From: an uncultured Chloroflexia bacterium
Lineage (GTDB): Bacteria > Chloroflexota > Limnocylindria > Limnocylindrales > CSP1-4
Assembly (NCBI GenBank): GCA_963752475.1
Contig: CAVVYR010000019.1
Span: 32,001 to 96,000 of the forward strand
Length of the DNA stretch: 64,000 nt
Reading direction: 5' to 3'
Below, in pieces: positions 1 through 15,013 of this stretch (the stretch's first letter is position 1; each line of letters starts with the position of its first letter). A program made the translations under genes and the position numbers. The notes below the pieces were generated by a model that saw only the letters and a list, made by a program, of their open reading frames with translations, was not told where the DNA came from and ran no database searches.

Positions 1-517
1 CAAGGTCCGCGGCGAAGACGAACCGTCCTCCGGGCGCGACCACGATGCAGTGCGTATGCGGCCCATCCTGTCGCTCGGCGTTCGGCCCCGATCCCGCGTG
101 TCGATGGGCGCTCGCGACCCGACCCAGGGAACCGTCTGCCCCGACCGGCATCAGCGCCACTCGGCCACGACCGTAGTCGGCCAGCAACAACACCCGGCCC
201 GCCGGGTCTGTCGTCAGGTAGCTGGCCCAGGCGCCACCCATGCCCTGGACGCCGAGCAGCTCCAGCGACCCATCGGCCGCCGAGACGGCGTAGGCGCCGA
301 TGATGCCCTCTGGCCGCTCCGGGACCTCGGACGCGGCGTAGAGGAAGCGTCCATCGGGCGAGAGGCACAGGAATGCGGGGCTGTCGATGCCCCGCACGAC
401 CTGCTCGAGCTTCAGCCGACCCGCGATCGGCTCGTAGTCGAAGACGTAGAGGCCCTCACCATTCGTCGATCCCAGGTAGGGCGCCGGCTGGGTGAAGGTC
501 CCGACGTAGAGCTTCGT
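1..517 (-). CDS. Lactonase family beta-propeller protein (6-phosphogluconolactonase/YkgB-like), runs off the window end; apparent ACG start
   Basis: Not in ORF track. Manual translation: KLYVGTFTQ...GEGLYVFDY...SPAFLCLSPDGRFLYAASE...HAGSGPNAERQDGPHTHCIVVAPGGRFVFAADL, typical of the lactonase family. Confidence 0.85.
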
Positions 518-519
518 GG

Positions 520-1707
520 CTACTCCTCGGGCAGGTCCAGCGGGTAGTTCCCGTACTCGCGCACGGTCTTGACGATCAGGTCGTAGGTGTGGCCGGAGAC
601 GTCACTCGAGACGGAGTGGTCGGACATGAAGATGTAGCCGCCGCCATAGGCTGCGCGCAGGCGGTGCAGGACCTCGCGGCGGACCTCGTCCGGGTCACCC
701 CGCTCCCACACGCGCATGTCGCTGTTGCCGCAGAACGTGAGGCGGTGGCCCAGGCGCTCGCGCAGCTCGACCACGTCGAGGCCGGCCTTGGCTTCGAGCG
801 GGTTGTAGCCATCGAGGCCGATCTCGATCATGTCCTCAAGGTAGCTGTTGGCGTTGCCGCAGCCATGGAACATGACCGGTAGATCGTGTGAGTGGCAGAG
901 CTCGATGATGCGCGCGATCGTCGGCTTGTAGTACTTGCGCCAGTAGGTGGGGCCCATGAAGAGGCCCTTCTTGTAGGCCGCGTCGCCCCAGATGACGAAG
1001 CCGTCGAGCAGGCCGTCCGCCGCTTCGATCTGCGCCTTGGCCACCTCGTAGCCGAACTCGCCGATGCGCAGCAGTTGCTCACCGAAGCGCTCGGGATACT
1101 CGCCGATCCAGGTCAGCGTGTTGAGCTGGCCCAGCAGGCGAGTGGTGATCTCCGAGGACTCGGTCACGCTGCCGTAGACGGGGAAGTCCGGGTGCAGGCT
1201 CCTGACCGTCTCGACCCACGGCGGGCTGTTGCGTTCGAAGCCATCCCCGACCCCGGCGATCTGATTGTCGCCGGCCTCGAAGTAGCGCCGTCGGTCCCAG
1301 GGGTCGTCGAACTCGAAGGCCTCCATCTTCTCGATGGTGTCGGTCTCCCAGCTGATCTGCTCCGGCATGGGCAGGTCGAAGCGCTTGCGGATCTGCGTCT
1401 CGAAGCCGGTCTTGAGCACGACCTCCTCGTCGTCCTCCTTGATGGTCTCGAAGTCGCGGATGTGCGGGTCCATGTTGGGGACCGTGACGATGAAGTCGAG
1501 GTCGTAGTAGCGATGGGGATCGGCATCGTCAGGCAGGCCCAGCTCCTGGCGCCAGCGCCTGGTGAAGGAGCCCCAGAAGAAGTCGCTGATGGGGACCCGG
1601 TCGGCCTCCTCATGCGCGAAGGTCTTGCGTAGGCGCTCGAGCTTGGCCAGCGTCTCGGGCTGGCGTTCGATGCCCTCGGACGCCTTGATGGTTCCGAAGA
1701 AGCTCAT
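520..1707 (-). CDS. Uroporphyrinogen decarboxylase superfamily protein (MtaA/CmuA-like methylcobamide methyltransferase)
   Basis: N-terminal ADRVPI; WGDAAYKKGLFMGP, FHGCGN and GGGYIFMSDHSV motifs; adjacent to a corrinoid protein. Confidence 0.85.
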   Translation of the reverse strand: MSFFGTIKASEGIERQPETLAKLERLRKTFAHEEADRVPISDFFWGSFTRRWRQELGLPDDADPHRYYDLDFIVTVPNMDPHIRDFETIKEDDEEVVLKTGFETQIRKRFDLPMPEQISWETDTIEKMEAFEFDDPWDRRRYFEAGDNQIAGVGDGFERNSPPWVETVRSLHPDFPVYGSVTESSEITTRLLGQLNTLTWIGEYPERFGEQLLRIGEFGYEVAKAQIEAADGLLDGFVIWGDAAYKKGLFMGPTYWRKYYKPTIARIIELCHSHDLPVMFHGCGNANSYLEDMIEIGLDGYNPLEAKAGLDVVELRERLGHRLTFCGNSDMRVWERGDPDEVRREVLHRLRAAYGGGYIFMSDHSVSSDVSGHTYDLIVKTVREYGNYPLDLPEE

Positions 1708-1724
1708 GTGTTCGGTCCCCCTTC

Positions 1725-2357
1725 CTATGCTGCGCCGACCAGCGTCTTGGCCACGTCAGCCGCGGCGCCCGCATCCTCGGCGAACCCGTCCGCGCCCACC
1801 TCCGCGGCAAACTCGGCGCTCACCGGGGCACCGCCGATGAGCACCTTGGTGTCGACGCCGCTGGCTTTGACCGCTTCCACCGCCTTGCGCATGTGCGGCA
1901 CGGTCGTGGTCAGCAGCGCGCTCATGCCCACGATATCCGGCTGGTACTCCACTGCTGCCTCGGCGAAGCTCGAAGGGGAAACGTTGACGCCGAGGTCGAT
2001 GACCTCGAAGTTGGCCCCGCGCCACATCATGCCCACGAGGTTCTTGCCGATGTCGTGCAAGTCGCCCTCGACGGTGCCGATGACCGCGGTGTGCGGGGCC
2101 TTCACGCCGGACTCGGCGATGAGCGGCTCCAGCAGGGTCATCGAGGCCTTCATGGCGTTGGCTGCGATGAGCATCTCGGGCACGAAGATCTCGTCGCACT
2201 GGAACTGCTCGCCGATGACGGACATGCCCGGCACCAGCCGCTCTTCGACGATGAAGCTCGCGGCTTCTCCCTCGTCGAGGCACCCCTGCGTCAGCTCGAC
2301 CGCCGCCGCCTTGTCCCCGTCGATGACGGCCTGGGTCAATGGATGCATCTCAGCCAT
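1725..2357 (-). CDS. Corrinoid (B12-binding) protein, MtbC/MttC-like
   Basis: Cap domain (EIFVPEMLIAA), base-off His-on motif GDLHDIGKNLV, MSALLTTT and IGGAP. Confidence 0.95.
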   Translation of the reverse strand: MAEMHPLTQAVIDGDKAAAVELTQGCLDEGEAASFIVEERLVPGMSVIGEQFQCDEIFVPEMLIAANAMKASMTLLEPLIAESGVKAPHTAVIGTVEGDLHDIGKNLVGMMWRGANFEVIDLGVNVSPSSFAEAAVEYQPDIVGMSALLTTTVPHMRKAVEAVKASGVDTKVLIGGAPVSAEFAAEVGADGFAEDAGAAADVAKTLVGAA

Positions 2358-2402
2358 GGTTCGGTTCCTCCCTCTCGCGCGCGTCTCCGCGTGGCCTTGG
2401 TC

Positions 2403-3494
2403 TCATTGGTCGTCGCCGCCGATGTTCACGACGCATCCGGCCTCACCGGACTCGTAGAGCGCGTGCACCAGCTTCAGCGTGCGTAGGTTGTCGCGAGCAC
2501 CCGACTCGGGCTCCCCGCCATCGGCGATCGCCTCCAGCAAGGAGCGCACCGGGCCCAGGAATGAGTCCGGCACCCAGCGACGGGTGACCGGATAGGGCAG
2601 CCAGCCGTCGGTCGGCAGGCTGCGGCTCCAGAGTTCGAGCGTGTCCGGCCGTCCATGCGGGTAGTCCAGCAGGAGACCCAGCGTGCCGCGGATGGAGCCC
2701 TCGGAGCCGTCGATGCGGAAGCGCGCCTCGTTGTCGCCAGCCACGTTCATGTGGTTCGTGTGCACGATCGCCCGCTGGTCGCGGGTGTAGTCGAGGATGC
2801 TCAGCGTGCGCGTCTCTCCCACCGCCTCCTGGCCCGGCAGCCGCCATTGGCGCCCGAAGACCGACACGGGATCGCCCAGGAGCGCCCGGCAGGTGTCCAG
2901 GTAGTGGATCGAGTGGTTGAGCAGGTCCAGGCGCGGCGCCTCCGTCAGCCAGCCCCAGCCGGAGAAGTCGGTCTCGAGGTTGACCTCGAAGGTGACGGTC
3001 GAGACGTCGCCGATCCAGCCGCGCTCGACCATCGCGCGAGCGGCGAGCATGCCCTCCTCATAGCGCATCTGTTGCTGGACCGCGACCTTGCGCCCCAGTT
3101 GCTCGGCTCGTTCGATGATGCGCTCGGCCTCGTCGATATCCCAGGCCAATGGCTTCTGGCACATGAGGTCCTTGCCGGCTTCGAGCGCGCGCAGGGCGAT
3201 CTCCGTCTGCGCCTGGGGCACGACCGCGATGTCGATGATGGCCACGTCCGGATCGGCCAACAGGTCGTCGAGCGTCTCGTGGACCCTGGGGATGCCGTGC
3301 CGTTCGGCGAAGGCCTCGGCCTTGTCGCGGGACCGTCCCCAGATGGCCGGCACCGGGATGCCGGCAGCCTTGTAGGCGGGCAGGTGCGCGGCTTCGAGGA
3401 TGGCTCCGCTGCCGACGATGCCGATCGGCAGGACCTGGTCCGGCTTCGGCATGAGGTCGCAGGCTTCGGCGATCTCGGCGAGGGGACCGATCAT
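2403..3494 (-). CDS. Gfo/Idh/MocA family oxidoreductase
   Basis: IGIVGSGAI Rossmann motif, CQKP motif, NHSIHYLD. Confidence 0.9.
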   Translation of the reverse strand: MIGPLAEIAEACDLMPKPDQVLPIGIVGSGAILEAAHLPAYKAAGIPVPAIWGRSRDKAEAFAERHGIPRVHETLDDLLADPDVAIIDIAVVPQAQTEIALRALEAGKDLMCQKPLAWDIDEAERIIERAEQLGRKVAVQQQMRYEEGMLAARAMVERGWIGDVSTVTFEVNLETDFSGWGWLTEAPRLDLLNHSIHYLDTCRALLGDPVSVFGRQWRLPGQEAVGETRTLSILDYTRDQRAIVHTNHMNVAGDNEARFRIDGSEGSIRGTLGLLLDYPHGRPDTLELWSRSLPTDGWLPYPVTRRWVPDSFLGPVRSLLEAIADGGEPESGARDNLRTLKLVHALYESGEAGCVVNIGGDDQ

Positions 3495-3502: not shown

Positions 3503-4348
3503 TTACTCCTCGATGCGATAGAAGGCGGCGGCGGTGCCACCGAGGATGGCGTCGCGCTCGGCATCCCCCACACCGAGCTCGTCGAGGGCGAGGTTGGTCT
3601 CATCCCAGACCTTCGCATAATCGCCCGCGAGGATGGCCACCGGCCAGTCGCTGCCGAACAGCAGGCGCTCGGCGCCGAAGACCTCGAGGCTGTGGCCGAT
3701 CGACTCGACGAGGTCTGCGCCGGTCCAGGTCTCCGGGTCGGCCGCGGTGTTGAGGCCGCTGATCTTGGCGTAGACGTTGGGGTGCTCGGCCGCAGCGGTC
3801 ATCTCCGTCTTCCAGACGTCGTACTCGCCCGAGGCGATGGGCGGCTTGGCCAGGTGATCGATGACCATCTTCAGGTCCGGGCACGCATCGGCCAGCGCGG
3901 GCACGTGCTTCAGGTGCAGCGGATGGACGGCGATGACGTCGAAGGTCAGCGCGCGTTCCTCGAGGATCTTGAGCCCATCGATGACCTCCGGCCGCACCAG
4001 CCAGTCGGGATCGGCCTCCTCGTGGTTGAGGTGGCGCACGCCCTTGAACCAGGGGTTCGCCTCCAGCTCGTCGAGCTTCCGCTCAGCCAGCCTATGCGCA
4101 TACAGCGGGACCCAACCCACGACCGCACCGATCCATTCGTGTTCAGCGGCCTGCGCGAGCATGGCCTCGGTGTCCTCGAAGTTGTCCGCCGACTGCACCA
4201 GCACCGTGCGGTCGACGCCCGTGGCGGCCAGCTGTGGCTCCAGCTCGGCCGGCTCGAACGTGCGGTAGATGGGCCCGTACGCGGGCAGGAGCCACGCGTA
4301 GTAGACCTGCTCCGGGTTCCAGAAGTGCTGGTGGCTGTCGACGATCAC
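3503..4348 (-). CDS. Amidohydrolase family protein, L-fuconolactonase-like
   Basis: MIVDSHQHFW, KGVRH, IDHLAKP, AKISGL and FGSDWPV motifs. Confidence 0.9.
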   Translation of the reverse strand: MIVDSHQHFWNPEQVYYAWLLPAYGPIYRTFEPAELEPQLAATGVDRTVLVQSADNFEDTEAMLAQAAEHEWIGAVVGWVPLYAHRLAERKLDELEANPWFKGVRHLNHEEADPDWLVRPEVIDGLKILEERALTFDVIAVHPLHLKHVPALADACPDLKMVIDHLAKPPIASGEYDVWKTEMTAAAEHPNVYAKISGLNTAADPETWTGADLVESIGHSLEVFGAERLLFGSDWPVAILAGDYAKVWDETNLALDELGVGDAERDAILGGTAAAFYRIEE

Positions 4349-4376: not shown

Positions 4377-5678
4377 TCACGTGGCGTAGTCCTGCACGAC
4401 CTCGGCCGCGATGTCGGCCCACTGCCACAGGCGCTGGGGCTCGTATCGGACGGTCGAGATGTCCTTCATGATCAGCTCGCGGTGGCAGCCCCTCGAGGCA
4501 TCGAGGAACTCGACCAGCTGGTCGCGCGCCATCTGTGGGTCGAACTGGTCGCGAGCGAAGACGTTGGGGTTGGGCTTTCGCGAGAGGACGTAGTCGGTGC
4601 CGACCTGCTCGACCATGGACTCGACGTTGGCCCACGGGGTCGTCGAGATCTTGCGCAGGTTGGGGATGCGCTTGATGACGTCGATGGACTGGTCCAGTGG
4701 CTCGCAGCAGCCGTAGTAGGTGAGCCCGAAGCGCTTCAGCCACTTGAGGTCGTGTTCGACCGCGAACTCCCAGCGCATCTGGGGTGAGACCTCGCTGAAG
4801 ATCTGGGCGTTGCTGCAGCCCCACATGTCGTGCGTCTTGACCCAGGCCGGATCGTAGTCGTCACCGGGCAGCTCGCTGGTGTGGCCATAGCCGCCGGAGC
4901 CGATGCGCGTGTTGTTGTTATCGAGTGAGAGCAGGTTCATGGACTCGAACTGGTCCATCTCCACCATCCAGGCTTGCACCGTGCGCTCGACGCCGGCGTG
5001 TACGAGGTCGGGGCGCATGACCAGGTCCATCATCGCTTCCTGCACGCCCCACCAGCGCACGAGGAAGTCCCAGGGCGTGTACCAGACGTGGGTCTGACCC
5101 TGCTTCTTCACGGGCATGATGCCGTCATAGACCTCGGACATGGCCGTGAAGCGGAACTCGGTCGCCTCCTCGTTGTGCGTGACCACCGGCATCTTGATCT
5201 TCTCGAGGTCGTCCCAGTCCTTGATCTGGATCTGGAACTCGCGCGAGACGATGTCGTTCTCGTCATCGGTCTTGGCGACCTTGACGTCTTCGATGATGCC
5301 GAAGTCCGTACTGTGGATGGCCAGTGGGCAGGCGAGGAAGTCGTTGATGATCATGTCGCCCTGGAGATGGCGCCACTGGTACAGCGTCCGGCGCAGGTCG
5401 CGCTCCTGGTCCTGGGCCCAGGGGTCCTCGGTCTGGAGGGTGAGCTCGCCATCGACGTCCATCTCGTGCCAGGGGATCTCGTTGATCCAGACCATCGGCC
5501 GCTCGGACTCGAGGTCGTTGAGCTTCTGCCACAGCCGGGCCCGTTCCGCGTTGACCGGGTCCGCGGCGGCTTCGGCCAGGTCCGAGGCCAGCGCGCGCAG
5601 GATGTCACGATCGTGCTCGGAGACCTCGATCTCGTGCGCGATGGGCGGCGGTTCGTAGTGGCTTGGGTCGTGCAGCAT
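4377..5678 (-). CDS. Divergent URO-D superfamily protein (putative methyltransferase)
   Basis: 433 aa; EVSPQMRWEF, YYGCCEP, RKISTTPWAN, SRKPNP and MKDISTV fit the C-terminal half of a URO-D-like TIM barrel. Confidence 0.65.
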   Translation of the reverse strand: MLHDPSHYEPPPIAHEIEVSEHDRDILRALASDLAEAAADPVNAERARLWQKLNDLESERPMVWINEIPWHEMDVDGELTLQTEDPWAQDQERDLRRTLYQWRHLQGDMIINDFLACPLAIHSTDFGIIEDVKVAKTDDENDIVSREFQIQIKDWDDLEKIKMPVVTHNEEATEFRFTAMSEVYDGIMPVKKQGQTHVWYTPWDFLVRWWGVQEAMMDLVMRPDLVHAGVERTVQAWMVEMDQFESMNLLSLDNNNTRIGSGGYGHTSELPGDDYDPAWVKTHDMWGCSNAQIFSEVSPQMRWEFAVEHDLKWLKRFGLTYYGCCEPLDQSIDVIKRIPNLRKISTTPWANVESMVEQVGTDYVLSRKPNPNVFARDQFDPQMARDQLVEFLDASRGCHRELIMKDISTVRYEPQRLWQWADIAAEVVQDYAT

Positions 5679-6826: not shown

Positions 6827-6865
6827 CGCCGGCGCCTCGTCAGCCCGCTTCCTGCGCCAAGCGTC

Positions 6866-7805: not shown

Positions 7806-7817
7806 CGGGGTCGCATC

Positions 7818-8738
7818 TCAGGCGTGCTCCGTGTCCGCGAACAGCCCGCTGCGCTCGATGACGATGAGGCCGATGGCGAGGGAGATGCCCAGCAGCAAGA
7901 CGGCCATGGCCGCCGCCGCGGGCGTGTCCAGGATCTGGAAGGCGTACGTGTAGCTGAGCTGGTTGGGGCTCCATTGCGGTGATATCTGGCCGGCCGTGAC
8001 TGCCGAGAGGACCTGCACTTCGATGAAGAGCTGGAAGCCATAGGCCACGTTGAGCAGCGCCATGTAGCCGATCCAGGGCCGGATGATGGGCAGCTGGATG
8101 CGCCAGGCGATGGCGACCTTGCCGGCACCATCCACGGTGGCCGCTTCCATGACTTCCTCGTTGATGCCGTTGAGGCCGCCATTGACGATGACCAGCCAGG
8201 TGCCCGCACCCTGCAGGAACAGGATCCCGGTGAGGATCACGGGCATGTGCTGCGGCTGCGCCACCTGGTTGATGTTGGTGTAGCCCAGGAAGTCCCAGAG
8301 CGGGTCGATCGGGCTCTGCCCGGGATTCATGATGAAGAGCCAGAGCACGATGTTGGCGATGCCCGCGAGTGCACCCGGCATGTAGTAGAGGAAGCGCATG
8401 CTCGAGCCGTAGCGGCCCGGGCTGTTGTAGACGAGCAGCGCCAGACTCACGACGCCGATCATCATCACCGGGATCCACACCGCCAGCGTGGTCAGGATGT
8501 GGATGAAGGTGTCGGCGAAGCGGAAGTCGCTGATGATGCGCTCGTAGGCCGAGAAGCCGAAGCCTCCGCCCCGCTCCTGCAGGCTGATGTAGATGCCGTA
8601 GAGCATCGGGATGATGCCTGCGATCAACAGCAGGAAGCTGAACGGCGCGATGAGGATGAAGGCGGCACGGACCTCGGCCCACAGAGGGGACCGCGGGCGC
8701 AGGCTTCGCCTTCGGTTGGTCGCGGTGGAGACGCTCAT
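7818..8738 (-). CDS. Carbohydrate ABC transporter permease
   Basis: Multiple TM segments; EEVMEAATVDGAG motif. Confidence 0.9.
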   Translation of the reverse strand: MSVSTATNRRRSLRPRSPLWAEVRAAFILIAPFSFLLLIAGIIPMLYGIYISLQERGGGFGFSAYERIISDFRFADTFIHILTTLAVWIPVMMIGVVSLALLVYNSPGRYGSSMRFLYYMPGALAGIANIVLWLFIMNPGQSPIDPLWDFLGYTNINQVAQPQHMPVILTGILFLQGAGTWLVIVNGGLNGINEEVMEAATVDGAGKVAIAWRIQLPIIRPWIGYMALLNVAYGFQLFIEVQVLSAVTAGQISPQWSPNQLSYTYAFQILDTPAAAAMAVLLLGISLAIGLIVIERSGLFADTEHA

Positions 8739-10229: not shown

Positions 10230-10330
10230 AGAACTTCCTCCCAAGGTCGTGGCCTGCCGGCCACCTGTCGGTCCCGACGTCTTCTCCTCCGCACCGGGAC
10301 GGCCGCAGGTTAGACCTCATCAGGGGCGGC

Positions 10331-10354
10331 TTGTCAACGTTGATAACGATATCT
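10331..10354. promoter_or_regulatory. Overlapping LacI-type operators in the divergent promoter region
   Basis: TTGTCAACGTTGATAA (16-bp palindrome, one mismatch, central CG) overlapping GATAACGATATC; AT-rich patch; LacI gene in the operon. Confidence 0.65.
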
Positions 10355-10461
10355 AGGGCCTCAAGTGGCGGATAAATACATACCGCGGCACCGTCCTTTC
10401 AGCCGACTGAACAAGCTCGGACCTCTATCCACGCTTGAAACGGCTCGCTATACTCCCGCCC

Positions 10462-11151
10462 ATGGCTGAACAAACGAATGTTCACGACCCGGAGCTGCGC
10501 TTCGAGGACGTGCCGGGGAAGATCGGTGAGCGACTGACCAGCGCCATGGTCTCGGATTCGCTCGATGCGTCGGGGGTCCGTGGCCAGGTCATGGACGCAC
10601 GCATCGGCCCTGTGACGTCCGGTTCGCGGGCGGTCGGGCGGGCTCGAACCGTCTGCTTCGAGCCGAATGACCGGGACAGCGACGATCCCTACGGCGCAGC
10701 CATGGACTTCATCGACTCGCTCGGCCCCGGCACGGTCGCGGTCATCGCCACCGGCGGGGATGAGCGAACGGCCTACTGGGGCGAGCTCTTCAGCGCCTCG
10801 GCCAAGGGCCACGGGGCCGTGGGCACGGTCTGTGACGGACCCGTGCGCGACGTGGCCAAGGTGCGCCAGGTCGGCTACGACCTCTTCGCGCCGTCGTTCC
10901 GGCCGCTCGACTATCGTGCCCGGATGTACGTCACGAGCATGGCCCAGCCGGTCGAGTGCGGCGGCGTTCCCGTCGCGCCCGATGACCTCGTCTTCGCTGA
11001 CGAGGACGGCGTGGTGGTCGTGCCTCAAGCCGCGGAGGCAGAGGTGCTGGCACGCGCCATCGACCGAGCGACAGCGGAGAGCAACGTGCTCGAGGAGCTG
11101 CTCGGCGGTGCCAGCCTGCGTGAGGTCTGGGAGCGTTGGCACGTCCTGTGA
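10462..11151 (+). CDS. RraA family protein / HMG-CHA aldolase-like
   Basis: SDSLD, AYWGELFS, DGPVRDV, DLVFADEDGVVVVP; TATACT (10449-10454) 7 nt before the ATG (leaderless). Confidence 0.88.
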   Translation: MAEQTNVHDPELRFEDVPGKIGERLTSAMVSDSLDASGVRGQVMDARIGPVTSGSRAVGRARTVCFEPNDRDSDDPYGAAMDFIDSLGPGTVAVIATGGDERTAYWGELFSASAKGHGAVGTVCDGPVRDVAKVRQVGYDLFAPSFRPLDYRARMYVTSMAQPVECGGVPVAPDDLVFADEDGVVVVPQAAEAEVLARAIDRATAESNVLEELLGGASLREVWERWHVL

Positions 11152-11447
11152 ACGGAGCGACGGATCCTCGTCTGCTGCTGCTTGCCGACGGTGACAACGT
11201 GCTCATCACCACGACCTCCATCCGGGCCGGTGAGACGCTAAGCGTGGATGGTCAGCCCGTGGACCTGGCGGTCGACGTGGCCCTCGGCTTCAAGGTGGCC
11301 GCTGCCGACCTCGCCGAGGGCACCACGGTCGTGCGCCTGGGCATGCCCATCGGCCGGACCACGGCTGGCGTGGCACGTGGCGAGGTCATCCACACCCACA
11401 ACCTCGAGAGCCTGTACATGCGTACCCACGCGCGAGGAGAGCAGTGA
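11148..11447 (+). CDS. SAF-domain small subunit of a UxaA/GarD-type dehydratase
   Basis: DNV...GFKVA...GEVIHTHNLES; GTGA overlap with upstream gene. Confidence 0.88.
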   Translation: MNGATDPRLLLLADGDNVLITTTSIRAGETLSVDGQPVDLAVDVALGFKVAAADLAEGTTVVRLGMPIGRTTAGVARGEVIHTHNLESLYMRTHARGEQ

Positions 11448-12668
11448 TGGAGCTCACCGGCTACCTGCGCTCCGATGGGCGCAAGGGCATCCGCAACGTC
11501 GTCGCAGTGGCCTATCTCGTGGAGTGCGCGCATCACGTCGCGGGCCGCATCGGCGCGGGTATGGAGGACGACGTCCACGTCATCGGCTTCGGTGGCTGCT
11601 ACCCCAACGACTACGCCGCCATGATGCTCGAGCGATTGACCACACATCCGAACGTGGGCGCGGTCTTGCTCGTGTCGCTCGGCTGTGAGGGTTTCGACCG
11701 CGCCGAGTTGGCTCGGGCCATCGCGGCCTCTGGCCGACCCGTGGAGACACTGGTCATCCAGCAGGTCGGCGGCACGCGGGCGACGATCGAGGCCGGCCGC
11801 TCCTGGGTCAAGCAGGCGCGCGCAGCAGCTGGCCCGCCAGGAACGCGTGCCCATGGGCCTGGACGAGCTCGTCGTGGGCACCATCTGCGGTGGCTCCGAC
11901 AGCACCAGCGGCATCACTGCCAATCCGTCGGTGGGCCGGGCCTTCGAGAGTCTCGTGGATGCGGGCGCGGTGGCCATCTTCGAGGAGACCGGCGAGCTCA
12001 TCGGCTGTGAACACGCCATGGCCGAGCGCGCCATCACGCCCGAGCTGGGCCAGGAGCTCATCGACGCCGTGGAGAAGGCGGAGCGCTACTACACCACGCT
12101 GGGCCACGGCAGCTTCGCGGCCGGCAATGCCGAGGGTGGTCTCACCACCATCGAGGAGAAGTCACTCGGTGCCTACGCCAAGAGTGGCAGCGGGCCGATC
12201 CACGGGGTCATCAAGCCCGGCGACATCCCGCAGCACGGCGGCCTCTATCTGCTCGATGTCATCCCCGATGGCGAGGTCCGCTTCGGCTTCCCCAACATCA
12301 ACGACAACGCCGAGGCTGCCGAGCTCATGGCTTGCGGCGCCCACATGATCCTGTTCACCACCGGGCGTGGGTCGGTCGTGGGCAGTGCCATCAGCCCCAT
12401 CATCAAGGTCTGCGCCAACCCCGAGACGTACGCACGCATGTCCGAGGACATGGACGTCAACGCCGGCCGGATCCTCCATCGTGAGGCCAGCATCGACCAG
12501 GTCGGCGAGGAGATCTTCCAGCTCGCCCAGCGTGTCGCTGCCGGCGAGCCCAGCGCCAGCGAGGCCATGGGCCACCAGGAGTTCGTGCTGACGTACAAGA
12601 CGTTCGAGCCGGTCGGACCGGCCTGCCTGCCGTTGGTAGCGGCACCACCACCACCTGCGTCGGCCTAG
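11444..12668 (+). CDS. UxaA/GarD family sugar-acid dehydratase large subunit (frameshift near 11821)
   Basis: [28 protein letters not shown], then shifted frame [37 protein letters not shown]. Confidence 0.88.
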
Positions 12669-12678: not shown

Positions 12679-13137
12679 ATGCGAACGGTCGAGGAGTTCT
12701 TCGAGGACTACGAGATCGGCTTCGCCCGGGAGACCACCGGGCGCACGATGACCGAGGCCGACATCGTCTTGCATGCAGGGCAGACCGGCGACTTCTTTCC
12801 GCACCACATGGATGCCGAGTGGTGCGCCACGCAGCCGTTCGAGCGGCGCGTGGCACACGGCACGCTGGTGATGTCGATGGCCGTGGGCATGACTGCGGGT
12901 GACATCAATCCGCGGGCCATGAGCTACGGCTACGACCGCGTGCGCTTCGTAAGGCCGGTCCACATCGGCGACACACTCAAGGTGCGCGCGGAGATCACCT
13001 CCAAGTACGACCATAGGAAGCGCCCGGAGCAGCTGGGCATGGTCGAGGAAACGGTCACGGTCACCAACCAGGAGGCACAGGTCGTGCTCGTGCTGGTCCA
13101 CCTCTACGTGGTGGAGAAGCGCGGCGCGGCGGCCTGA
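12679..13137 (+). CDS. MaoC/PaaZ-like hot-dog dehydratase
   Basis: [37 protein letters not shown]. Confidence 0.9.
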
Positions 13138-13151
13138 CAGCGGAGGGGAAG

Positions 13152-13475
13152 ATGCAACGACACGGACAGCTCATCGGGCTCGATCCCGAGCGGTACGACG
13201 AGTACGCCAAGGCCCACGCCGATGTGTGGCCGGGCGTGCTGGCGATGATCAAGGAGTGCAATATCCAGAACTACTCCATCTACCACCACGGCGGCATGCT
13301 CTTCGCCTACTTCGAGTACGTCGGTGACGACTTCGAGGCGGACATGGCCAAGATGGCGGCCGACCCCGAGACCCAGCGCTGGTGGGACTGGATGATGCCC
13401 ATGCAGCGGCCCCGCGAGGACCGGGCCGAAGGCGAATGGTGGCTCGAGATGAAGGAGGTCTTCCACCTCGACTGA
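13152..13475 (+). CDS. L-rhamnose mutarotase family protein
   Basis: YAKAHADVWP, NIQNYSIY, LFAYFEY, WWDWM, EVFHLD. Confidence 0.9.
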   Translation: MQRHGQLIGLDPERYDEYAKAHADVWPGVLAMIKECNIQNYSIYHHGGMLFAYFEYVGDDFEADMAKMAADPETQRWWDWMMPMQRPREDRAEGEWWLEMKEVFHLD

Positions 13476-13481
13476 GCGTGT

Positions 13482-13523
13482 GATGTCGCCCGAAGGTCGG
13501 GTTCGTCGATGAGCGGGCACATC
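13482..13523. repeat. Intergenic inverted repeat (REP-like or terminator between convergent genes)
   Basis: GATGTCGCCCG-N21-CGGGCACATC. Confidence 0.45.
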
Positions 13524-13548
13524 TGGCGCTTGCCGCCACGCGCCACGG

Positions 13549-14310
13549 TCAGTCGCCCCTGTACGACTCCGCAGGGACGGCCTTGACCACGTCATCGTCG
13601 TAACTCAAGGTGACAGCCTCGCCGGGCTTGATGACGAGGAAGTCCTCGTTCCACTCGCCGTCGAGCATCCGCTCGACGAGGCCCATGTCGCTGAGCACGG
13701 ACTCGAAGCGCCAGCCCCGGTCCTCCGTTTCTGTCTGTGCGCGTTCCTTGGCCACATCGTCGGGCGCCATACCGGTCTCGAGGAAGGCTCCGCGTGAGTA
13801 ATGCTGCTGCCAGTCGCCGAGCGCCTCCATGAGGTAGTCGGCGTTCTCCTGACCGTACTTCTCGACGTACTCATCGTACGTCGCCTTCACGCTGTTCGAT
13901 CGCTCCGAGCTGCCCAGGAGCGCGCCCATGAAGGCGTTGCCGCGCTTGACGTTGTCCTCGGTGAACCAGTACGTGCCCGGCGTCGACTCCTGCTCCTGCA
14001 TGTAGCGCTCGCGTGAGCCCAGGAAGATGGTCACGCAGTCGTGCGCCCGGGGCAGCACCAGCGGTACGCGCTTCGACTTGAGACCGCCGGTAGCGCCACC
14101 GCAGTACCCGTAGCCCAGGAGGATGGCGTCGACGTCGGGATCTTCGGCCTCGATGCGGTCGACGTGCTCCTGGATGAGGTCGCGCAGCGGCAGCGGCTCG
14201 TTGTGCAACGAGGCCGAGAGGTCGCTGATGACGATGTCGTGCGGCGACTCGGCTGCGAGCGTCTGCGCCGGCAGCATGAGCATGTCGCAGAGGAGGAGTT
14301 GGAGCCGCAT
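13549..14310 (-). CDS. DUF1638 domain protein (associated with corrinoid methyltransferase systems)
   Basis: LLCDML, SLHNEP, ILLGYGYCGG, PRAHDCVTIFLGSRERY, PGTYWFT. Confidence 0.85.
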   Translation of the reverse strand: MRLQLLLCDMLMLPAQTLAAESPHDIVISDLSASLHNEPLPLRDLIQEHVDRIEAEDPDVDAILLGYGYCGGATGGLKSKRVPLVLPRAHDCVTIFLGSRERYMQEQESTPGTYWFTEDNVKRGNAFMGALLGSSERSNSVKATYDEYVEKYGQENADYLMEALGDWQQHYSRGAFLETGMAPDDVAKERAQTETEDRGWRFESVLSDMGLVERMLDGEWNEDFLVIKPGEAVTLSYDDDVVKAVPAESYRGD

Positions 14311-14320
14311 GCGTCGATCG

Positions 14321-15013
14321 CTACGCGGACGCGGAAAGCGTCTCGGGGTTGATGACGCCGTCAGCTTCGCGCTCGCCGCGGGCGGCCTCTACCACGGCCG
14401 TGGCCACGTGGACCGCGCTCGCGGCATCGGGCGCCCAGCCGTCGGCACCGATCTCCCTGGCGAACTCGAGCGTGACCGGGGCGCCACCGACGATGACGCT
14501 TACGTGCTTGAGGTCGTCGGCAGCGGCCACGGCCTCGGTGACCTGGCGCATGTTTCCCATCGTCGTGGTCAGCAGCGCGCTGCAGCCGATGATGTCGGCG
14601 TTGTGCTCACGAGCCGCAGCGAGGTACTCGTCGGCACTGGTGCTCGTGCCCAGGTCGATGACCTCGAAGTTGGCGCCCTTGAGCATCATGGCCACGAGGT
14701 TCTTGCCGATGTCGTGGAGGTCGCCCTTGATGGTGCCCAGCACGGCCACCTTGTCCGGCTTGTGACCGGAGCCGATGAGCAGCGGCTCGAGCAGCGCCAC
14801 CGCGCCCTTCATGGCACGCGCGCTGATGAGCATCTCGGGGACGAAGATCTCCTGCCGGCTGAAGCGCTCTCCGACCACGCCCATGGCCTCGGTCATGGGA
14901 TCGAGGATCGCGTGCGGATCGAGGCCTTCCTCGATCGCGCCTTGGGTGATCTCGACCGCGGTCTCGCGGTCACCGGCCTCGACGGCCGCCTGGAGTCGCT
15001 CGAAGTCTGCCAT
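14321..15013 (-). CDS. Corrinoid (B12-binding) protein
   Basis: EIFVPEMLISARAM, GDLHDIGKNLV, SALLTTT, VGGAP. Confidence 0.95.
   Translation of the reverse strand: MADFERLQAAVEAGDRETAVEITQGAIEEGLDPHAILDPMTEAMGVVGERFSRQEIFVPEMLISARAMKGAVALLEPLLIGSGHKPDKVAVLGTIKGDLHDIGKNLVAMMLKGANFEVIDLGTSTSADEYLAAAREHNADIIGCSALLTTTMGNMRQVTEAVAAADDLKHVSVIVGGAPVTLEFAREIGADGWAPDAASAVHVATAVVEAARGEREADGVINPETLSASA

What the first reader, a model, noticed from the sequence alone, without database searches (positions are those of the whole stretch)
1..15013. Candidate B12-dependent O-demethylation plus non-phosphorylative catabolism of a methylated sugar
Seen: one LacI/sugar-ABC locus co-encodes a URO-D/MtaA-like protein, a second divergent URO-D protein, a corrinoid protein, a Gfo dehydrogenase and two lactonases. 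Divergently it encodes an RraA-type aldolase, UxaA/SAF, MaoC and a rhamnose mutarotase. A second corrinoid protein and DUF1638 converge on it. Established: corrinoid plus MtaA/URO-D methyltransferases demethylate methanol, methylamines and aryl ethers, and mutarotase-dehydrogenase-lactonase-dehydratase-aldolase is the non-phosphorylative fucose/rhamnose route. Inference: the locus imports an O-methylated (deoxy)sugar such as methyl-fucose or methyl-rhamnose, removes the methyl group onto cobalamin and degrades the sugar. I know of no characterised pathway of this design. No folate-binding MT2 or RACo activator is visible in the window.
Basis: partly seen in the sequence, partly recalled or inferred. 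Interest (0 to 1): 0.8.

Follow-up and report, generated by a model that had tools for sequence, protein, structure and literature searches.

The report
Candidate B12-dependent methyl-sugar demethylation locus
A soil and freshwater Chloroflexota bacterium has put a vitamin-B12 methyl-carrier protein and a methyltransferase-like enzyme inside a sugar-uptake and sugar-breakdown operon, which most likely lets it strip methyl groups off methylated fucose- or rhamnose-like sugars without oxygen, a reaction no paper I found describes.

Summary

The central inference is the best explanation but is untested.
- The corrinoid gene sits directly upstream of the URO-D gene in 16 of 18 Chloroflexota relatives.
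- A predicted complex of the two proteins scores 0.87, against 0.00 for the best control.
- The URO-D protein keeps an MtaA-type His-x-Cys...Cys motif.
- Its orthologues (62-73% identical in at least six other phyla) sit beside a RhaM-type mutarotase in 46 of 80 loci, and also beside RhaT transporters, fucosidases and sulfatases.

The "missing" parts exist outside the window. An MTHFR/pterin-binding fusion with FolD, formate-THF ligase and a corrinoid protein lies about 20 kb upstream on the same contig, and a RACo activase lies on another contig.

Main weakness: outside Chloroflexota only 4 of 62 orthologue loci have a corrinoid gene nearby.

This scan has flagged the same idea on other genomes at least six times. 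Nine literature searches found no published description. Verdict: a new variant of corrinoid methyltransferase systems. Confidence 0.6, interest 0.72.

The parts
2..397 (-). N-terminal part of a 7-bladed beta-propeller lactonase. The C-terminal part lies left of the window in another frame.
   Evidence: Pfam PF10282, E 6.6e-30, profile positions 35-162. C-terminal piece L001:19446-20000, profile positions 203-344. The two frames differ.
520..1707 (-). URO-D superfamily protein, candidate methyl-sugar:corrinoid methyltransferase (MT1).
   Evidence: PF01208, E 2.1e-20, over residues 167-385. Best solved relative MtaA 4AY7, E 1.6e-6, with 'yhgCGNV' aligned on MtaA 'lhICGNV'. H281, C283 and N285 invariant and C326 near-invariant in 21 sequences. 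Fold TM 0.64-0.69 to UroD and MtaA. Predicted complex with the corrinoid protein passes.
1725..2357 (-). Corrinoid (B12-carrier) protein 1, 17 nt upstream of the URO-D gene.
   Evidence: PF02310, E 1.7e-27, plus PF02607, E 1.2e-20. The motifs GDLHDIGKN, SALLTTT and GGAP are conserved in 18 sequences.
2403..3494 (-). GFO/IDH/MocA NAD(P) sugar dehydrogenase.
   Evidence: PF01408, E 8.7e-21. Lies directly upstream of the corrinoid/URO-D pair in 9 of 18 Chloroflexota loci; a tenth locus has a partial copy.
3503..4348 (-). Amidohydro_2 sugar lactonase, L-fucono-1,5-lactonase-like.
   Evidence: PF04909, E 1.1e-46. NCBIfam FuconLaconase 184.6 bits, below the cut-off of 400.
4377..5678 (-). Divergent URO-D-fold protein with no Pfam family. 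Candidate second methyltransferase.
   Evidence: No Pfam or NCBIfam hit. AF2 model pLDDT 80.7; the listed Foldseek hits at E<=1e-3 are all UroD or MtaA. The family has 3259 cluster representatives at E<=1e-3. Two paralogues in the same genome both lie by URO-D genes.
5732..6826 (-). LacI-family repressor.
   Evidence: PF00356, PF13377 and PF00532.
6840..8738 (-). Two CUT1-type ABC permease genes (6840-7805 and 7818-8738).
   Evidence: PF00528 in both.
8886..10244 (-). Probable carbohydrate-binding protein of the ABC importer.
   Evidence: Only weak NCBIfam hits: TIGR03850 at 26 bits and TIGR03851 at 24.4 bits. Syntenic in L005 (74% identity) and L018 (66%).
10332..10345 (.). LacI-type palindromic operator candidate, TGTCAACGTTGATA, in the divergent intergenic region.
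   Evidence: One mismatch from a perfect 14-nt palindrome; 0 of 100 shuffles of the window give 2 or more matches. The only site in the genome at one mismatch or fewer. Kept in the same intergenic region of L005.
10435..11151 (+). RraA-like protein of the class II pyruvate aldolase family.
   Evidence: PF03737, E 3.9e-33. NCBIfam hits to HMG/CHA aldolase models, all below their cut-offs.
11136..12668 (+). Split UxaA/GarD-type sugar-acid dehydratase: SAF subunit 11136-11447 and large subunit 11685-12668.
   Evidence: PF08666, E 8.9e-6. PF20629, E 6.7e-83.
12679..13137 (+). MaoC-like hot-dog protein, role unexplained.
   Evidence: PF01575, E 1.2e-22. Homologues of 61-83% identity lie near the URO-D orthologue in 4 of 80 loci.
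13152..13475 (+). RhaM-family mutarotase.
   Evidence: PF05336, E 7.2e-34. A homologue lies near the URO-D orthologue in 46 of 80 loci.
13549..14310 (-). DUF1638 protein, the only copy in the genome. Probable helper of corrinoid reactivation.
   Evidence: PF07796, E 3.2e-36. Single copy. In relatives it lies by MTHFR/pterin, corrinoid and RACo genes.
14321..15013 (-). Corrinoid protein 2.
   Evidence: PF02310, E 1.7e-27, plus PF02607, E 2.2e-19.
15070..17817 (-). Amino-acid-type ABC importer (ATPase, permease, SBP_bac_3) directly upstream of corrinoid protein 2 on the same strand. Its link to the finding is uncertain.
   Evidence: PF00005 and PF00528. PF00497.

Best explanation
The locus is a LacI-controlled regulon for a methylated free sugar, most likely an O-methyl 6-deoxyhexose of the fucose or rhamnose type.

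Proposed steps (all inferred):
1. A CUT1 ABC system imports the sugar.
2. A RhaM-type mutarotase supplies the right anomer.
3. The URO-D-family enzyme (520-1707) passes the O-methyl group to Co(I) of the adjacent corrinoid protein (1725-2357). It would use an MtaA-like zinc site to bind or activate the ether oxygen.
4. The freed sugar is oxidised by the GFO dehydrogenase to a lactone.
5. The lactone is opened by the Amidohydro_2 and/or propeller lactonase.
6. The aldonate is dehydrated by the split UxaA-type dehydratase.
7. The product is cleaved by the RraA-like aldolase.
8. The methyl group goes from methyl-Co(III) to tetrahydrofolate through the MTHFR/pterin-binding fusion encoded 20 kb upstream, and is oxidised to formate by FolD and formate-THF ligase.
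9. RACo (contig C10) and DUF1638 (window) restore oxidised cobalt.

Shown: gene identities, operon structure, conservation of the gene pairs, and a passing predicted contact between the URO-D and corrinoid proteins.
Inferred: the substrate, the direction of methyl transfer, the order of steps, and the roles of the second URO-D-like protein (4377-5678) and of MaoC.
For: 1. One tight operon joins sugar uptake, LacI, sugar oxidation, a corrinoid protein and URO-D. Gaps are 8-53 nt.

2. A single LacI-type palindrome lies between the two divergent operons and is kept in L005.

3. The corrinoid protein has intact B12-binding motifs.

4. The URO-D protein has the UroD/MtaA fold and an invariant H-G-C-G-N plus a later Cys, aligned on the MtaA motif.

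5. The corrinoid gene lies directly upstream of URO-D in 16 of 18 Chloroflexota loci and in 4 of 62 loci of other phyla: L047, L061, L071, L078.

6. The predicted URO-D/corrinoid complex scores ipSAE 0.87 against 0.00 for the best of 3 controls.
   - The mark was reached by 58 of 80 solved complexes and 2 of 110 mismatched pairs.
   - The runs agree in at least 98% of contacts, and the partner's pLDDT is at least 86.
   - My own alignments were used, so the calibration counts hold only roughly.
   - The interface includes the corrinoid protein's DxHxxG, SALLTTT and GGAP loops.

7. URO-D orthologues are 62-73% identical in Verrucomicrobiota, Planctomycetota, Bacteroidota, Acidobacteriota, Lentisphaerota and Kiritimatiellia.
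   - A RhaM homologue lies nearby in 46 of 80 loci, and directly downstream in 17.
   - In 44 longer loci of other phyla, neighbours include RhaT (11), GH29 fucosidase (9), sulfatase (8) and GH95 (4).

8. The C1 module lies on the same contig. FolD and FTHFS lie 1.2-4 kb downstream of the URO-D gene in 5 of 18 relatives, and L012 also has the MTHFR/pterin fusion.

9. In the cultured Carboxylicivirga sediminis JR1, one strand carries RhaT, URO-D, RhaM, a corrinoid protein, a full-length URO-D, CobW and a MetH-activation-like protein, beside AraC and GH29 genes.

10. About 20 URO-D paralogues of this genome lie in sugar loci. Three of them lie next to P450 genes, the only published sugar demethylase type (PMC6292453 passages).

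11. Weak: contigs from an RNA library with 0-4 mismatches lie on URO-D, GFO, the permeases, the dehydratase, MaoC and DUF1638. DNA carry-over is not excluded.
Against: - No biochemical or genetic data exist for any member.
- Outside Chloroflexota, 58 of 62 orthologue loci have no corrinoid gene within the stretch held. Corrinoid dependence of the clade therefore rests on stand-alone corrinoid genes elsewhere in those genomes (5 of 5 genomes checked), which is permissive evidence only.
- The URO-D protein fails every NCBIfam methyltransferase cut-off, for example TIGR01463 at 32.7 bits against 235.4.
- An aliphatic alkoxide is a much poorer leaving group than the phenolates of known O-demethylase substrates (established chemistry). 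The reaction would need strong Lewis-acid help.
- The dehydratase and aldolase are not the families used in the characterised fucose and rhamnose routes. They are near the URO-D orthologue in only 2 and 3 of 80 loci (flanks limited to 10 kb).
- The propeller lactonase is frame-broken.
- The predicted complex may pass because it resembles solved methyltransferase-corrinoid complexes.
- The orthologue is rare in the class sample: 2 of 151 genomes.
Confidence: 0.6

Rival explanations
1. The URO-D clade acts on a fucose- or rhamnose-like sugar without a corrinoid protein. It could be a MetE-like zinc enzyme that passes the methyl group straight to a thiol or folate, or it could catalyse a different reaction altogether. 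The corrinoid gene in front of it in Limnocylindria would then be a lineage-specific addition with another role.
For: 58 of 62 orthologue loci outside Chloroflexota have no corrinoid gene nearby, while the RhaM pairing is general. MetE structures appear among the weaker fold matches. The Pfam match covers only the C-terminal half of the protein.
Against: - The corrinoid-then-URO-D adjacency holds in 16 of 18 Chloroflexota loci and recurs independently in four loci of other phyla.
- The predicted complex scores 0.87 against controls of 0.00.
- All 5 genomes checked carry stand-alone corrinoid genes 40-57% identical to those of this genome. In 4 of the 6 loci looked at, these lie by other URO-D paralogues.
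Confidence: 0.17
2. The corrinoid/URO-D pair handles a non-sugar methyl donor such as methanol, a methoxylated aromatic or a methylamine. On this reading it only shares a transcript with sugar genes, for example to feed C1 units or methionine synthesis during growth on sugars.
For: - Known URO-D-type corrinoid methyltransferases act on thiols, aryl ethers and halides (PMC10418091 passages).
- The corrinoid proteins score best, though below cut-off, against glycine-betaine MtgC models.
- The genome has one MttB-family gene.
- In one other genome a corrinoid gene lies by MtaB (L114).
Against: - Across phyla the orthologue's neighbours are sugar-specific: RhaM, RhaT, fucosidases and sulfatases.
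- About 20 paralogues in this genome lie in sugar loci.
- No aromatic-degradation or amine genes lie in the operon.
- No MtaB was found in this genome, which is 88.8% complete.
Confidence: 0.1
3. DUF1638, corrinoid protein 2 and the amino-acid-type ABC importer upstream of them form a separate unit with no tie to the sugar locus. It could be a split methionine synthase core or a demethylation system for an imported N-methyl compound. This rival concerns that sub-part only.
For: - The five genes are on one strand and closely spaced.
- DUF1638 and a B12-binding protein form an operon of the split methionine synthase of Phaeobacter (PMC5764234 passages).
- DUF1638 was more abundant during growth on N-osmolytes, alongside the MtgBCD system, in Ruegeria (PMC12478193 passages).
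- DUF1638 is not within 10 kb of the URO-D orthologue in 0 of 18 Chloroflexota loci.
Against: - In family relatives DUF1638 lies by MTHFR/pterin homologues (8 of 11 loci), corrinoid genes (5 of 11) and the same RACo type (9 of 10 genomes, within 1-9 kb). That makes it part of the shared C1 module that the sugar methyltransferases would also need.
- In L071 and L078 the URO-D orthologue, a corrinoid gene and DUF1638 lie within 6 kb of each other.
- It is the only DUF1638 gene in the genome.
Confidence: 0.3
4. The system runs the other way and methylates a sugar or sugar acid, as a biosynthetic or modifying step.
For: Corrinoid methyl transfers are reversible in vitro. The MtaA-type zinc site is typical of enzymes that accept a methyl group from methyl-cobalamin (recalled).
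Against: The context is catabolic throughout: importer, LacI repressor, dehydrogenase, lactonases, dehydratase, aldolase, and in other phyla glycoside hydrolases and sulfatases. FolD and formate-THF ligase lie next to the pair in relatives.
Confidence: 0.03

Closest known systems
Corrinoid-dependent aryl methyl ether O-demethylases of anaerobes (Acetobacterium dehalogenans Odm/Vdm, the Desulfitobacterium hafniense system, Mto of Methermicoccus)
   Same: A substrate-specific methyltransferase of the UroD superfamily (as stated in PMC10418091, passages). A small corrinoid protein with cap and Rossmann domains. Methyl delivery to a folate-type carrier. An ATP-dependent reductive activase (abstracts; PMC3727330 abstract).
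   Different: The predicted substrate is an aliphatic sugar ether, not a phenyl ether. The genes sit in a LacI/ABC sugar operon. MT2, activase and DUF1638 are scattered over the genome. MT2 is fused to MTHFR. The hosts are not acetogens or organohalide respirers.
MtaABC methanol:coenzyme M methyltransferase system of Methanosarcina (MtaA structure 4AY7)
   Same: MtaA is the best solved sequence relative (E 1.6e-6), with the H-x-C motif aligned. Zinc-assisted cleavage of an aliphatic C-O bond by Co(I) has a precedent in the MtaB/MtaC pair (recalled).
   Different: NCBIfam MtaA, MtbA and CmuA models score far below their cut-offs. There is no CoM context. MtaA takes the methyl group from the corrinoid, whereas this protein is proposed to load it. 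No MtaB was found in this genome.
MtgBCD glycine-betaine demethylase and split methionine synthase of aerobic Alphaproteobacteria, with RamA-like and DUF1638 proteins
   Same: A stand-alone corrinoid protein, a RamA/RACo-type activase and DUF1638 working in non-anaerobes, with the methyl group going to tetrahydrofolate (PMC12478193 and PMC5764234, passages).
   Different: The substrate methyltransferase there is of the MttB family, not URO-D. There is no sugar context.
Cytochrome P450 6-O-methyl-D-galactose demethylase of marine Bacteroidota
   Same: The same predicted biological job: removing a methyl ether that blocks sugar catabolism. It is also encoded within sugar-degradation loci (PMC6292453, abstract and passages).
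   Different: That chemistry is oxidative, needs O2 and releases formaldehyde. This locus has no P450. Three other URO-D loci of this genome do carry a P450 next to URO-D.
Non-phosphorylative L-fucose/L-rhamnose (and pentose) pathways
   Same: The same logic of mutarotase, 1-dehydrogenase, lactonase, dehydratase and aldolase. It is used by other Chloroflexota (SAR202; PMC10444878 passages). A UxaA/GarD-type sugar-acid dehydratase has a precedent (PMC6336799 passages).
   Different: The dehydrogenase is GFO-type. The dehydratase is a split UxaA-type enzyme; that paper names only sulfolactate sulfo-lyase as heteromeric. The aldolase is RraA-like. A MaoC protein has no place in the known routes.
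Type 1 mlp gene clusters (Kountz and Balskus preprint)
   Same: MtaA-like proteins with a corrinoid protein in non-methanogens, known from genome mining.
   Different: The authors propose a role in methyl-sulfur or methyl-selenide metabolism. The words sugar, carbohydrate and DUF1638 do not occur in the main text.

Membership tests
Multi-component corrinoid-dependent methyltransferase (O-demethylase-type) system | A substrate methyltransferase with the UroD-superfamily TIM-barrel fold | tested here: met
   PF01208, E 2.1e-20. The model matches UroD and MtaA at TM 0.64-0.69.
Multi-component corrinoid-dependent methyltransferase (O-demethylase-type) system | A cognate corrinoid protein with cap and Rossmann domains and the DxHxxG, SxL and GG motifs | tested here: met
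   PF02607 plus PF02310. The motifs are conserved in 18 sequences (motif names recalled).
Multi-component corrinoid-dependent methyltransferase (O-demethylase-type) system | Contact between the methyltransferase and the corrinoid protein | tested here: met
   Prediction only. ipSAE 0.87, best of 3 controls 0.00; the mark was reached by 58 of 80 solved complexes and 2 of 110 mismatched pairs. It may reflect likeness to solved complexes.
Multi-component corrinoid-dependent methyltransferase (O-demethylase-type) system | A pterin-binding methyl-corrinoid:tetrahydrofolate methyltransferase (MT2) | tested here: met
   Not in the window. Present at C19:10105-12627 as an MTHFR plus Pterin_bind fusion beside FolD, FTHFS and a corrinoid gene. 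Adjacent to the URO-D pair in L012.
Multi-component corrinoid-dependent methyltransferase (O-demethylase-type) system | A reductive activase (RACo/RamA type) | tested here: met
   One copy in the genome, on contig C10 next to an FGGY sugar kinase gene. None in the window.
Multi-component corrinoid-dependent methyltransferase (O-demethylase-type) system | Methyl transfer from an ether substrate to Co(I) | not testable with these tools
   Needs an anoxic enzyme assay.
MtaA/MtbA/CmuA methylcobamide methyltransferases (TIGR01463 and equivalogs) | A score above the curated family cut-off | tested here: not met
   TIGR01463 at 32.7 bits against 235.4. MtaA_Meth at 34.1 against 400. PRK06252 at 46.8 against 244.
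MtaA/MtbA/CmuA methylcobamide methyltransferases (TIGR01463 and equivalogs) | A His-x-Cys...Cys zinc motif | tested here: met
   H281 and C283 are invariant and C326 is near-invariant. H-x-C is aligned on the MtaA motif. That these residues are zinc ligands is recalled, not measured.
Uroporphyrinogen decarboxylase (HemE) | A full-length match to the family and a haem-synthesis role | tested here: not met
   The Pfam match covers profile positions 128-346 only. No HemE model is among the NCBIfam hits. The neighbours are sugar genes.
Non-phosphorylative L-fucose/L-rhamnose pathway | A mutarotase | tested here: met
   PF05336, E 7.2e-34. The NCBIfam YiiL model scores 57 bits, below the cut-off of 99.6.
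Non-phosphorylative L-fucose/L-rhamnose pathway | An L-fucono/rhamnono-lactonase | tested here: inconclusive
   FuconLaconase model at 184.6 bits against a cut-off of 400.
Non-phosphorylative L-fucose/L-rhamnose pathway | An enolase-superfamily aldonate dehydratase and a known keto-deoxy-aldonate aldolase or dehydrogenase | tested here: not met
   This locus has a UxaA-type dehydratase and an RraA-like protein instead. An enolase-type dehydratase, an SDR, an AKR and an ALDH lie in the neighbouring locus left of the window.
Cytochrome P450 sugar demethylase | A P450 with its ferredoxin partners in the locus | tested here: not met
   None among the genes of 1-19000.
MtgBCD / split methionine synthase core | An MttB-family or homocysteine methyltransferase next to the corrinoid protein and DUF1638 | tested here: not met
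   The only MttB-family match is on contig C6. The neighbours of DUF1638 and corrinoid protein 2 are an amino-acid-type ABC importer and the sugar operon. The homocysteine methyltransferase family was not searched.

The most novel reading that the evidence does not exclude
One clade of URO-D enzymes, spread by gene transfer through at least seven phyla as a URO-D/RhaM(/RhaT) cassette, is the missing oxygen-independent demethylase for methylated fucose and rhamnose.

It would work as one of many sugar-specific loading enzymes feeding a shared B12 carrier, activase (RACo or a MetH-type activation domain), DUF1638 and folate module. On this reading, bacteria not known as strict anaerobes turn the methyl ethers that make algal, plant and microbial glycans recalcitrant into folate-bound C1 units.

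A further speculation: the GFO dehydrogenase that always precedes the pair in Limnocylindria first oxidises a neighbouring hydroxyl. The ether would then leave as an enolate-like group, which would solve the leaving-group problem.
Probability: 0.45. Interest if true: 0.88.

Novelty: new variant of a known kind. Interest (0 to 1): 0.72.

Why it matters
Methyl ethers on sugars (methyl-fucose, methyl-rhamnose, methyl-galactose, methyl-glucuronate) are common in plant, algal and microbial polysaccharides. They are reported to resist gut degradation and to accumulate in sea water (PMC6292453, passages). The only sugar demethylase in the papers I could search is an O2-dependent P450 specific for 6-O-methyl-galactose.

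A B12-dependent route would have several consequences:
- It would explain how such sugars are used where oxygen is scarce.
- It would give a function to part of the very large set of unexplained 'uroporphyrinogen decarboxylase' paralogues in Chloroflexota, Verrucomicrobiota, Planctomycetota and Bacteroidota.
- It would add a new demand for cobalamin in carbohydrate turnover.
- It would link glycan breakdown to folate C1 metabolism.

A cultured carrier, Carboxylicivirga sediminis JR1, makes the idea directly testable.

Tried and rejected
- **Profile comparison.** Comparing the 433-aa protein with the URO-D alignment by profiles gave probability 1.3%, E 0.041. I did not use this as evidence; the fold search settled the question.
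- **Solved structures.** A sequence search of solved structures with the 433-aa family gave only a chance-level hit.
- **Spurious ORF.** The ORF at 11248-11688, which I first took for the SAF subunit, has no hit and is probably spurious.
- **Faulty lactonase query.** My first tblastn query for the propeller lactonase spanned the frame break and carried a stop. Its zero hits say nothing about relatives.
- **RNA families.** An Rfam scan of the whole window found only a tRNA and no cobalamin riboswitch.
- **Inverted repeats.** The inverted-repeat tool found nothing in the divergent intergenic region. I found the palindrome by eye and then tested it.
- **Sequencing runs.** Runs other than the best holder carry 0.34 or less of the stretch's words. 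I draw no habitat conclusion from them.
- **RNA cover.** Parts of the locus without RNA-contig cover are not evidence of silence.
- **HemE reading.** I rejected the reading of the URO-D gene as HemE, for the reasons in the membership test.
- **Literature.** Searches found no paper describing corrinoid-dependent demethylation of a sugar. Subscription journals and bioRxiv supplements are outside what I could see.

Full report
**What is there**

The window is G+C-rich, 65-72%, and is positions 32001-96000 of contig C19 of a 4.25-Mb, 38-contig genome estimated 88.8% complete. I chose ORFs by codon-position G+C and scanned them against Pfam and NCBIfam.

The minus strand carries one tightly packed operon:
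- a probable sugar-binding protein, 8886-10244 (only two weak NCBIfam hits)
- two CUT1-type permeases
- LacI
- a 433-aa protein with no family hit, 4377-5678
- an Amidohydro_2 lactonase (fuconolactonase model 184.6 bits, cut-off 400)
- a GFO/IDH/MocA dehydrogenase
- a corrinoid protein, 1725-2357
- a URO-D protein, 520-1707
- a 7-bladed propeller lactonase that runs off the window

Gaps between these genes are 8-53 nt, apart from 147 nt after the binding-protein gene and 122 nt before the lactonase.

The divergent plus-strand operon encodes an RraA-like protein, a split UxaA/GarD-type dehydratase (SAF 11136-11447 and large subunit 11685-12668), a MaoC-like protein and a RhaM-family mutarotase.

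Converging on it are DUF1638 and a second corrinoid protein. These follow an amino-acid-type ABC importer on the same strand.

- the position of the SAF piece
- the 'second URO-D' is invisible to sequence profiles
- the propeller lactonase is in two frames
- there is no ABC ATPase gene in the sugar operon

**The two URO-D-like proteins and the carrier**

The URO-D protein matches Pfam URO-D only over its C-terminal 220 residues, and it fails all NCBIfam MtaA, MtbA and CmuA cut-offs. Its best solved sequence relative is the methylcobalamin:CoM methyltransferase MtaA (4AY7, E 1.6e-6), with 'yhgCGNV' aligned on MtaA's 'lhICGNV'.

In an alignment of 21 orthologues, H281, C283 and N285 are invariant and C326 is nearly so. 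This is the His-x-Cys...Cys pattern that I recall as the zinc site of MtaA. An AlphaFold model (pLDDT 78.7) matches UroD and MtaA structures at TM 0.64-0.69 normalised by target.

The 433-aa protein gave a model of pLDDT 80.7. Its listed Foldseek hits at E<=1e-3 are all UroD or MtaA, with TM 0.45-0.60. So it is a very divergent member of the same superfamily. Its family has 3259 cluster representatives at E<=1e-3. Its two paralogues in this genome both lie beside URO-D genes.

Both corrinoid proteins, and 16 relatives, keep the GDLHDIGKN, SALLTTT and GGAP motifs.

A predicted complex of the URO-D and corrinoid-1 families scored ipSAE 0.87, against 0.00 for the best of three controls.
- That mark was reached by 58 of 80 solved complexes and 2 of 110 mismatched pairs.
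- The runs agree in at least 98% of contacts, and the partner's pLDDT is at least 86.
- My own alignments were used, so the calibration counts hold only roughly.
- The B12-binding loops of the carrier lie in the interface.

This supports binding but does not show it, and it may owe something to solved methyltransferase-corrinoid complexes.

**Relatives of the URO-D protein**

The URO-D protein belongs to a strongly conserved orthologue group. A protein search gave 5466 hits at E<=1e-3 among 8000 scored, with the top 120 at 66-91% identity.

- Eighteen are Chloroflexota, at 80-92% identity. Their record titles read 'Candidatus Limnocylindrales' or 'uncultured Chloroflexia'.
- The other 62, at 62-73% identity, are Verrucomicrobiota, Planctomycetota, Bacteroidota, Acidobacteriota, Victivallales, Kiritimatiellia and a few others. 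They include the cultured Carboxylicivirga sediminis JR1.

I compared the window's proteins with all 80 loci by tblastn, requiring at least 50% query cover and E<=1e-8.

| Neighbour of the URO-D orthologue | Chloroflexota (of 18) | Other phyla (of 62) |
|---|---|---|
| Corrinoid protein | 16 | 4 |
| GFO dehydrogenase | 14 | 4 |
| Amidohydro_2 lactonase | 10 | 1 |
| RhaM homologue | 10 | 36 |
| 433-aa protein | 7 | 7 |
| MaoC | 2 | 2 |
| RraA-like | 3 | 0 |
| UxaA large subunit | 2 | 0 |
| DUF1638 | 0 | 2 |

In Chloroflexota the corrinoid gene, where present, always lies directly upstream of URO-D. Flanks were at most 10 kb, so genes further away, such as the window's own dehydratase, escape these counts.

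The RhaM gene lies within 300 nt downstream on the same strand in 17 loci. It is present in 28 of the 40 non-Chloroflexota loci that have at least 2.5 kb on both sides.

I clustered the neighbours within 4.5 kb in 44 longer non-Chloroflexota loci and scanned one representative per cluster. The clusters were RhaT-type sugar symporters (11 loci), GH29 fucosidases (9), sulfatases (8), ribose-type ABC ATPases (7), AraC regulators (6 and 3), GH38 (5), GH95 (4) and corrinoid proteins (3).

The one constant partner of this enzyme across phyla is thus the uptake and mutarotation of a fucose- or rhamnose-like free sugar, often among fucosidases and sulfatases. The corrinoid gene is a constant partner only in Limnocylindria.

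**Where the rest of the methyl-transfer machinery is**

On the same contig, however, C19:6808-12627 encodes on one strand an 840-aa MTHFR plus Pterin_bind fusion, FolD, formate-THF ligase and a corrinoid protein. That is a complete path from methyl-corrinoid to formate.

Between that module and the window lie two more URO-D paralogues inside sugar loci. Those loci carry LacI, GntR, a ribose-type ABC system, SDRs, an Amidohydro_2, an aldehyde dehydrogenase, an enolase-type dehydratase and an aldo-keto reductase.

In 5 of 18 Chloroflexota relatives, FolD and FTHFS follow the URO-D gene within 1.2-4 kb.
- In L008 the gene between is another URO-D paralogue.
- L012 carries the whole MTHFR/pterin-FolD-FTHFS-corrinoid set next to the pair.

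The genome has 24 URO-D matches, about 20 genes. It also has six small corrinoid frames plus MetH, one RACo next to an FGGY sugar kinase, one DUF1638 and one MttB-family gene. No MtaB was found.

**DUF1638 and corrinoid protein 2**

In a sample of 151 genomes of the class, DUF1638 occurs in 11 counting this genome: 10 of the 44 other genomes of its own family and none of the 106 in other families.
- In 8 of the 11 non-self loci it lies beside a homologue of the MTHFR/pterin fusion, and in 5 beside a corrinoid gene.
- RACo occurs in 33 of the 151. In 9 of the 10 other DUF1638 genomes, a RACo of the same score class as this genome's lies 1-9 kb from DUF1638.

This fits two papers.
- In Phaeobacter, DUF1638 and a RamA-like protein are needed for a split methionine synthase and share a phylogenetic profile (PMC5764234, passages read).
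- In Ruegeria, both are more abundant during growth on N-osmolytes, the condition under which the MtgBCD system operates (PMC12478193, passages read).

I therefore read DUF1638 and corrinoid protein 2 as a dispersed piece of a shared C1/reactivation module. Whether its place next to the sugar locus is functional or accidental stays open, and its co-transcription with an amino-acid-type ABC importer is unexplained.

**Is the clade corrinoid-dependent outside Chloroflexota?**

This is the weakest point. I checked five genomes of other phyla whose orthologue has no corrinoid neighbour. All five hold at least one stand-alone frame of 210-230 aa with a B12-binding_2 match elsewhere. I looked at six such loci.

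- **Carboxylicivirga sediminis, first locus.** One strand carries RhaT, a URO-D protein (57% identical to this genome's C19:13821-15080 paralogue), RhaM, a corrinoid protein, a full-length URO-D with a thioredoxin-like tail, CobW and a protein matching the MetH activation domain. An AraC gene and a GH29 fucosidase lie beside them.
- **Carboxylicivirga sediminis, second locus.** It carries a GalK-like kinase, URO-D, a corrinoid protein, a full-length URO-D, CobW and the activation-domain protein, near KDPG aldolase, PfkB and RhaT genes.
- **A Verrucomicrobiae genome.** It has URO-D (59% to the same paralogue), a RACo-like stretch (tblastn only, 27%), DUF1638 and a corrinoid protein.
- **One Phycisphaerales genome.** It has URO-D, a corrinoid protein and MtaB (E 1.5e-165).
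- **Two loci.** They show nothing related nearby.

So sugar-linked URO-D/corrinoid operons recur in distant phyla, and a shared carrier encoded elsewhere is plausible. But this is permissive evidence, not proof.

**Other support**

In this genome the remaining URO-D paralogues lie among sugar ABC systems, LacI or GntR regulators, FGGY and PfkB kinases, GFO dehydrogenases, KDPG aldolases, an RraA-like gene and a second rhaM. Three of them are next to cytochrome P450 genes. P450 is the only enzyme type published as a sugar O-demethylase, and it acts on 6-O-methyl-D-galactose only (PMC6292453, abstract and passages).

A near-perfect LacI-type palindrome, TGTCAACGTTGATA, lies at 10332-10345 between the divergent operons.
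- None of 100 shuffles of the window gave two or more matches.
- It is the only site in the genome at one mismatch or fewer.
- It is kept in the same intergenic region of L005.

This argues that the transporter/methyltransferase operon and the dehydratase/aldolase/mutarotase operon form one regulon.

Contigs of a metatranscriptome library with 0-4 mismatches over 151-289 nt lie on eight places in both operons and on DUF1638. DNA carry-over cannot be excluded, so this is only a weak sign of expression.

**Mechanism proposed**

The steps, all inferred, are:
1. Import of the sugar.
2. Mutarotation.
3. Zinc-assisted transfer of the sugar's O-methyl group to Co(I) of corrinoid protein 1 by the URO-D enzyme.
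4. Oxidation of the freed sugar at C1 by the GFO enzyme.
5. Lactone hydrolysis.
6. Dehydration by the UxaA-type enzyme.
7. Aldol cleavage by the RraA-like protein.
8. Transfer of the methyl group to tetrahydrofolate by the pterin-binding fusion, then oxidation to formate.
9. Repair of Co(II) by RACo with DUF1638.

The chemistry is harder than for aryl ethers, because an alkoxide leaves poorly. Methanol activation by MtaB/MtaC is the precedent I recall for Co(I) attack on an aliphatic C-O bond.

In 9 Limnocylindria loci the GFO gene directly precedes the pair. An oxidation before demethylation is therefore possible, but this is speculation. The roles of the 433-aa protein and of MaoC are unknown.

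**Comparison with what is known, and novelty**

The system works like the three- or four-component corrinoid O-demethylases of anaerobes. It meets their structural criteria, but with the parts dispersed. It is not a member of the MtaA/MtbA equivalog families or of HemE.

The catabolic half works like the non-phosphorylative fucose/rhamnose routes that other Chloroflexota use (PMC10444878, passages). The enzyme families differ, though: a UxaA/GarD-type dehydratase has a precedent for D-arabinonate, and sulfolactate sulfo-lyase is the only heteromeric member named there (PMC6336799, passages).

Nine full-text searches found no paper describing corrinoid-dependent demethylation of a sugar. The preprint on MtaA-like gene clusters proposes methyl-sulfur or methyl-selenide metabolism, and its main text does not contain the words sugar, carbohydrate or DUF1638. 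Subscription journals and preprint supplements were not visible to me.

The idea is not new to this scan. At least six earlier notes on other genomes reached the same reading. They are unchecked and I do not count them as support.

I class the finding as a new variant of a known kind of system. Confidence in the main explanation is 0.6 and interest is 0.72.

Noticed in passing
window 2-397 and L001:19446-20000 (C19:31446-32397): [quoted passage not shown] The break lies roughly between C19:31880 and 32002. It is either a real frameshift or an assembly indel.
   Followed up: partly
L002 (C19:1-13000) and contig C27:116-13122: The 13-kb stretch holding the MTHFR/pterin fusion, FolD, FTHFS, the corrinoid gene and a 526-aa protein without family is present twice in the assembly at 98.2% identity. 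This is either a real duplication or a second strain binned together; estimated contamination is 5.8%.
   Followed up: partly
window 42812-48600: A further URO-D paralogue (44126-45313, plus strand) lies beside a CUT1 ABC importer and an Amidohydro_2 gene. No corrinoid gene is nearby.
   Followed up: no
L091:4611-7159, L095:3313-5789, L097:4983-9539: Three URO-D paralogues of this genome lie next to cytochrome P450 genes inside sugar loci, with rhaM, KDPG aldolase, PfkB and a xylose-isomerase-like protein. This may pair an oxygen-dependent and a B12-dependent demethylase.
   Followed up: no
L098:3450-6605 (C10): The genome's only RACo gene lies 22 nt from an FGGY sugar kinase gene on the same strand, near an SDR and an SMP-30 lactonase. 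This echoes an earlier scan note on a kinase/URO-D/RACo operon elsewhere.
   Followed up: no
L116:3516-9985 and L115:3556-9515 (Carboxylicivirga sediminis JR1): Two operons join a sugar transporter or kinase, a C-terminal-type URO-D, a corrinoid protein, a full-length URO-D, CobW and a stand-alone MetH-activation-domain protein. This is a cultured organism in which the hypothesis can be tested.
   Followed up: partly
L114:5458-9921: A Phycisphaerales genome has MtaB (E 1.5e-165) next to a corrinoid gene, a URO-D gene and an AraC regulator. This is a methanol-type system in a Planctomycete.
   Followed up: no
L093:2089-8755 (C6): A 556-aa URO-D protein is followed by NuoE/NuoF/NuoG-like and NiFe-hydrogenase-like genes. 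Three more URO-D genes and a paralogue of the 433-aa protein lie 8 kb further on.
   Followed up: no
L002:4923-6503: A 526-aa protein with no Pfam hit lies between a DeoR regulator and the corrinoid gene of the C1 module. Weak paralogues lie on C7 and C11. It might be another substrate methyltransferase.
   Followed up: no
window 12679-13137: A MaoC-like hot-dog protein travels with the URO-D orthologue in four loci of two phyla at 61-83% identity. It has no place in any sugar pathway I know.
   Followed up: no
window 15070-17817: An amino-acid-type ABC importer (SBP_bac_3) appears to be co-transcribed with corrinoid protein 2 and DUF1638. This hints at a second, non-sugar methylated substrate.
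   Followed up: no
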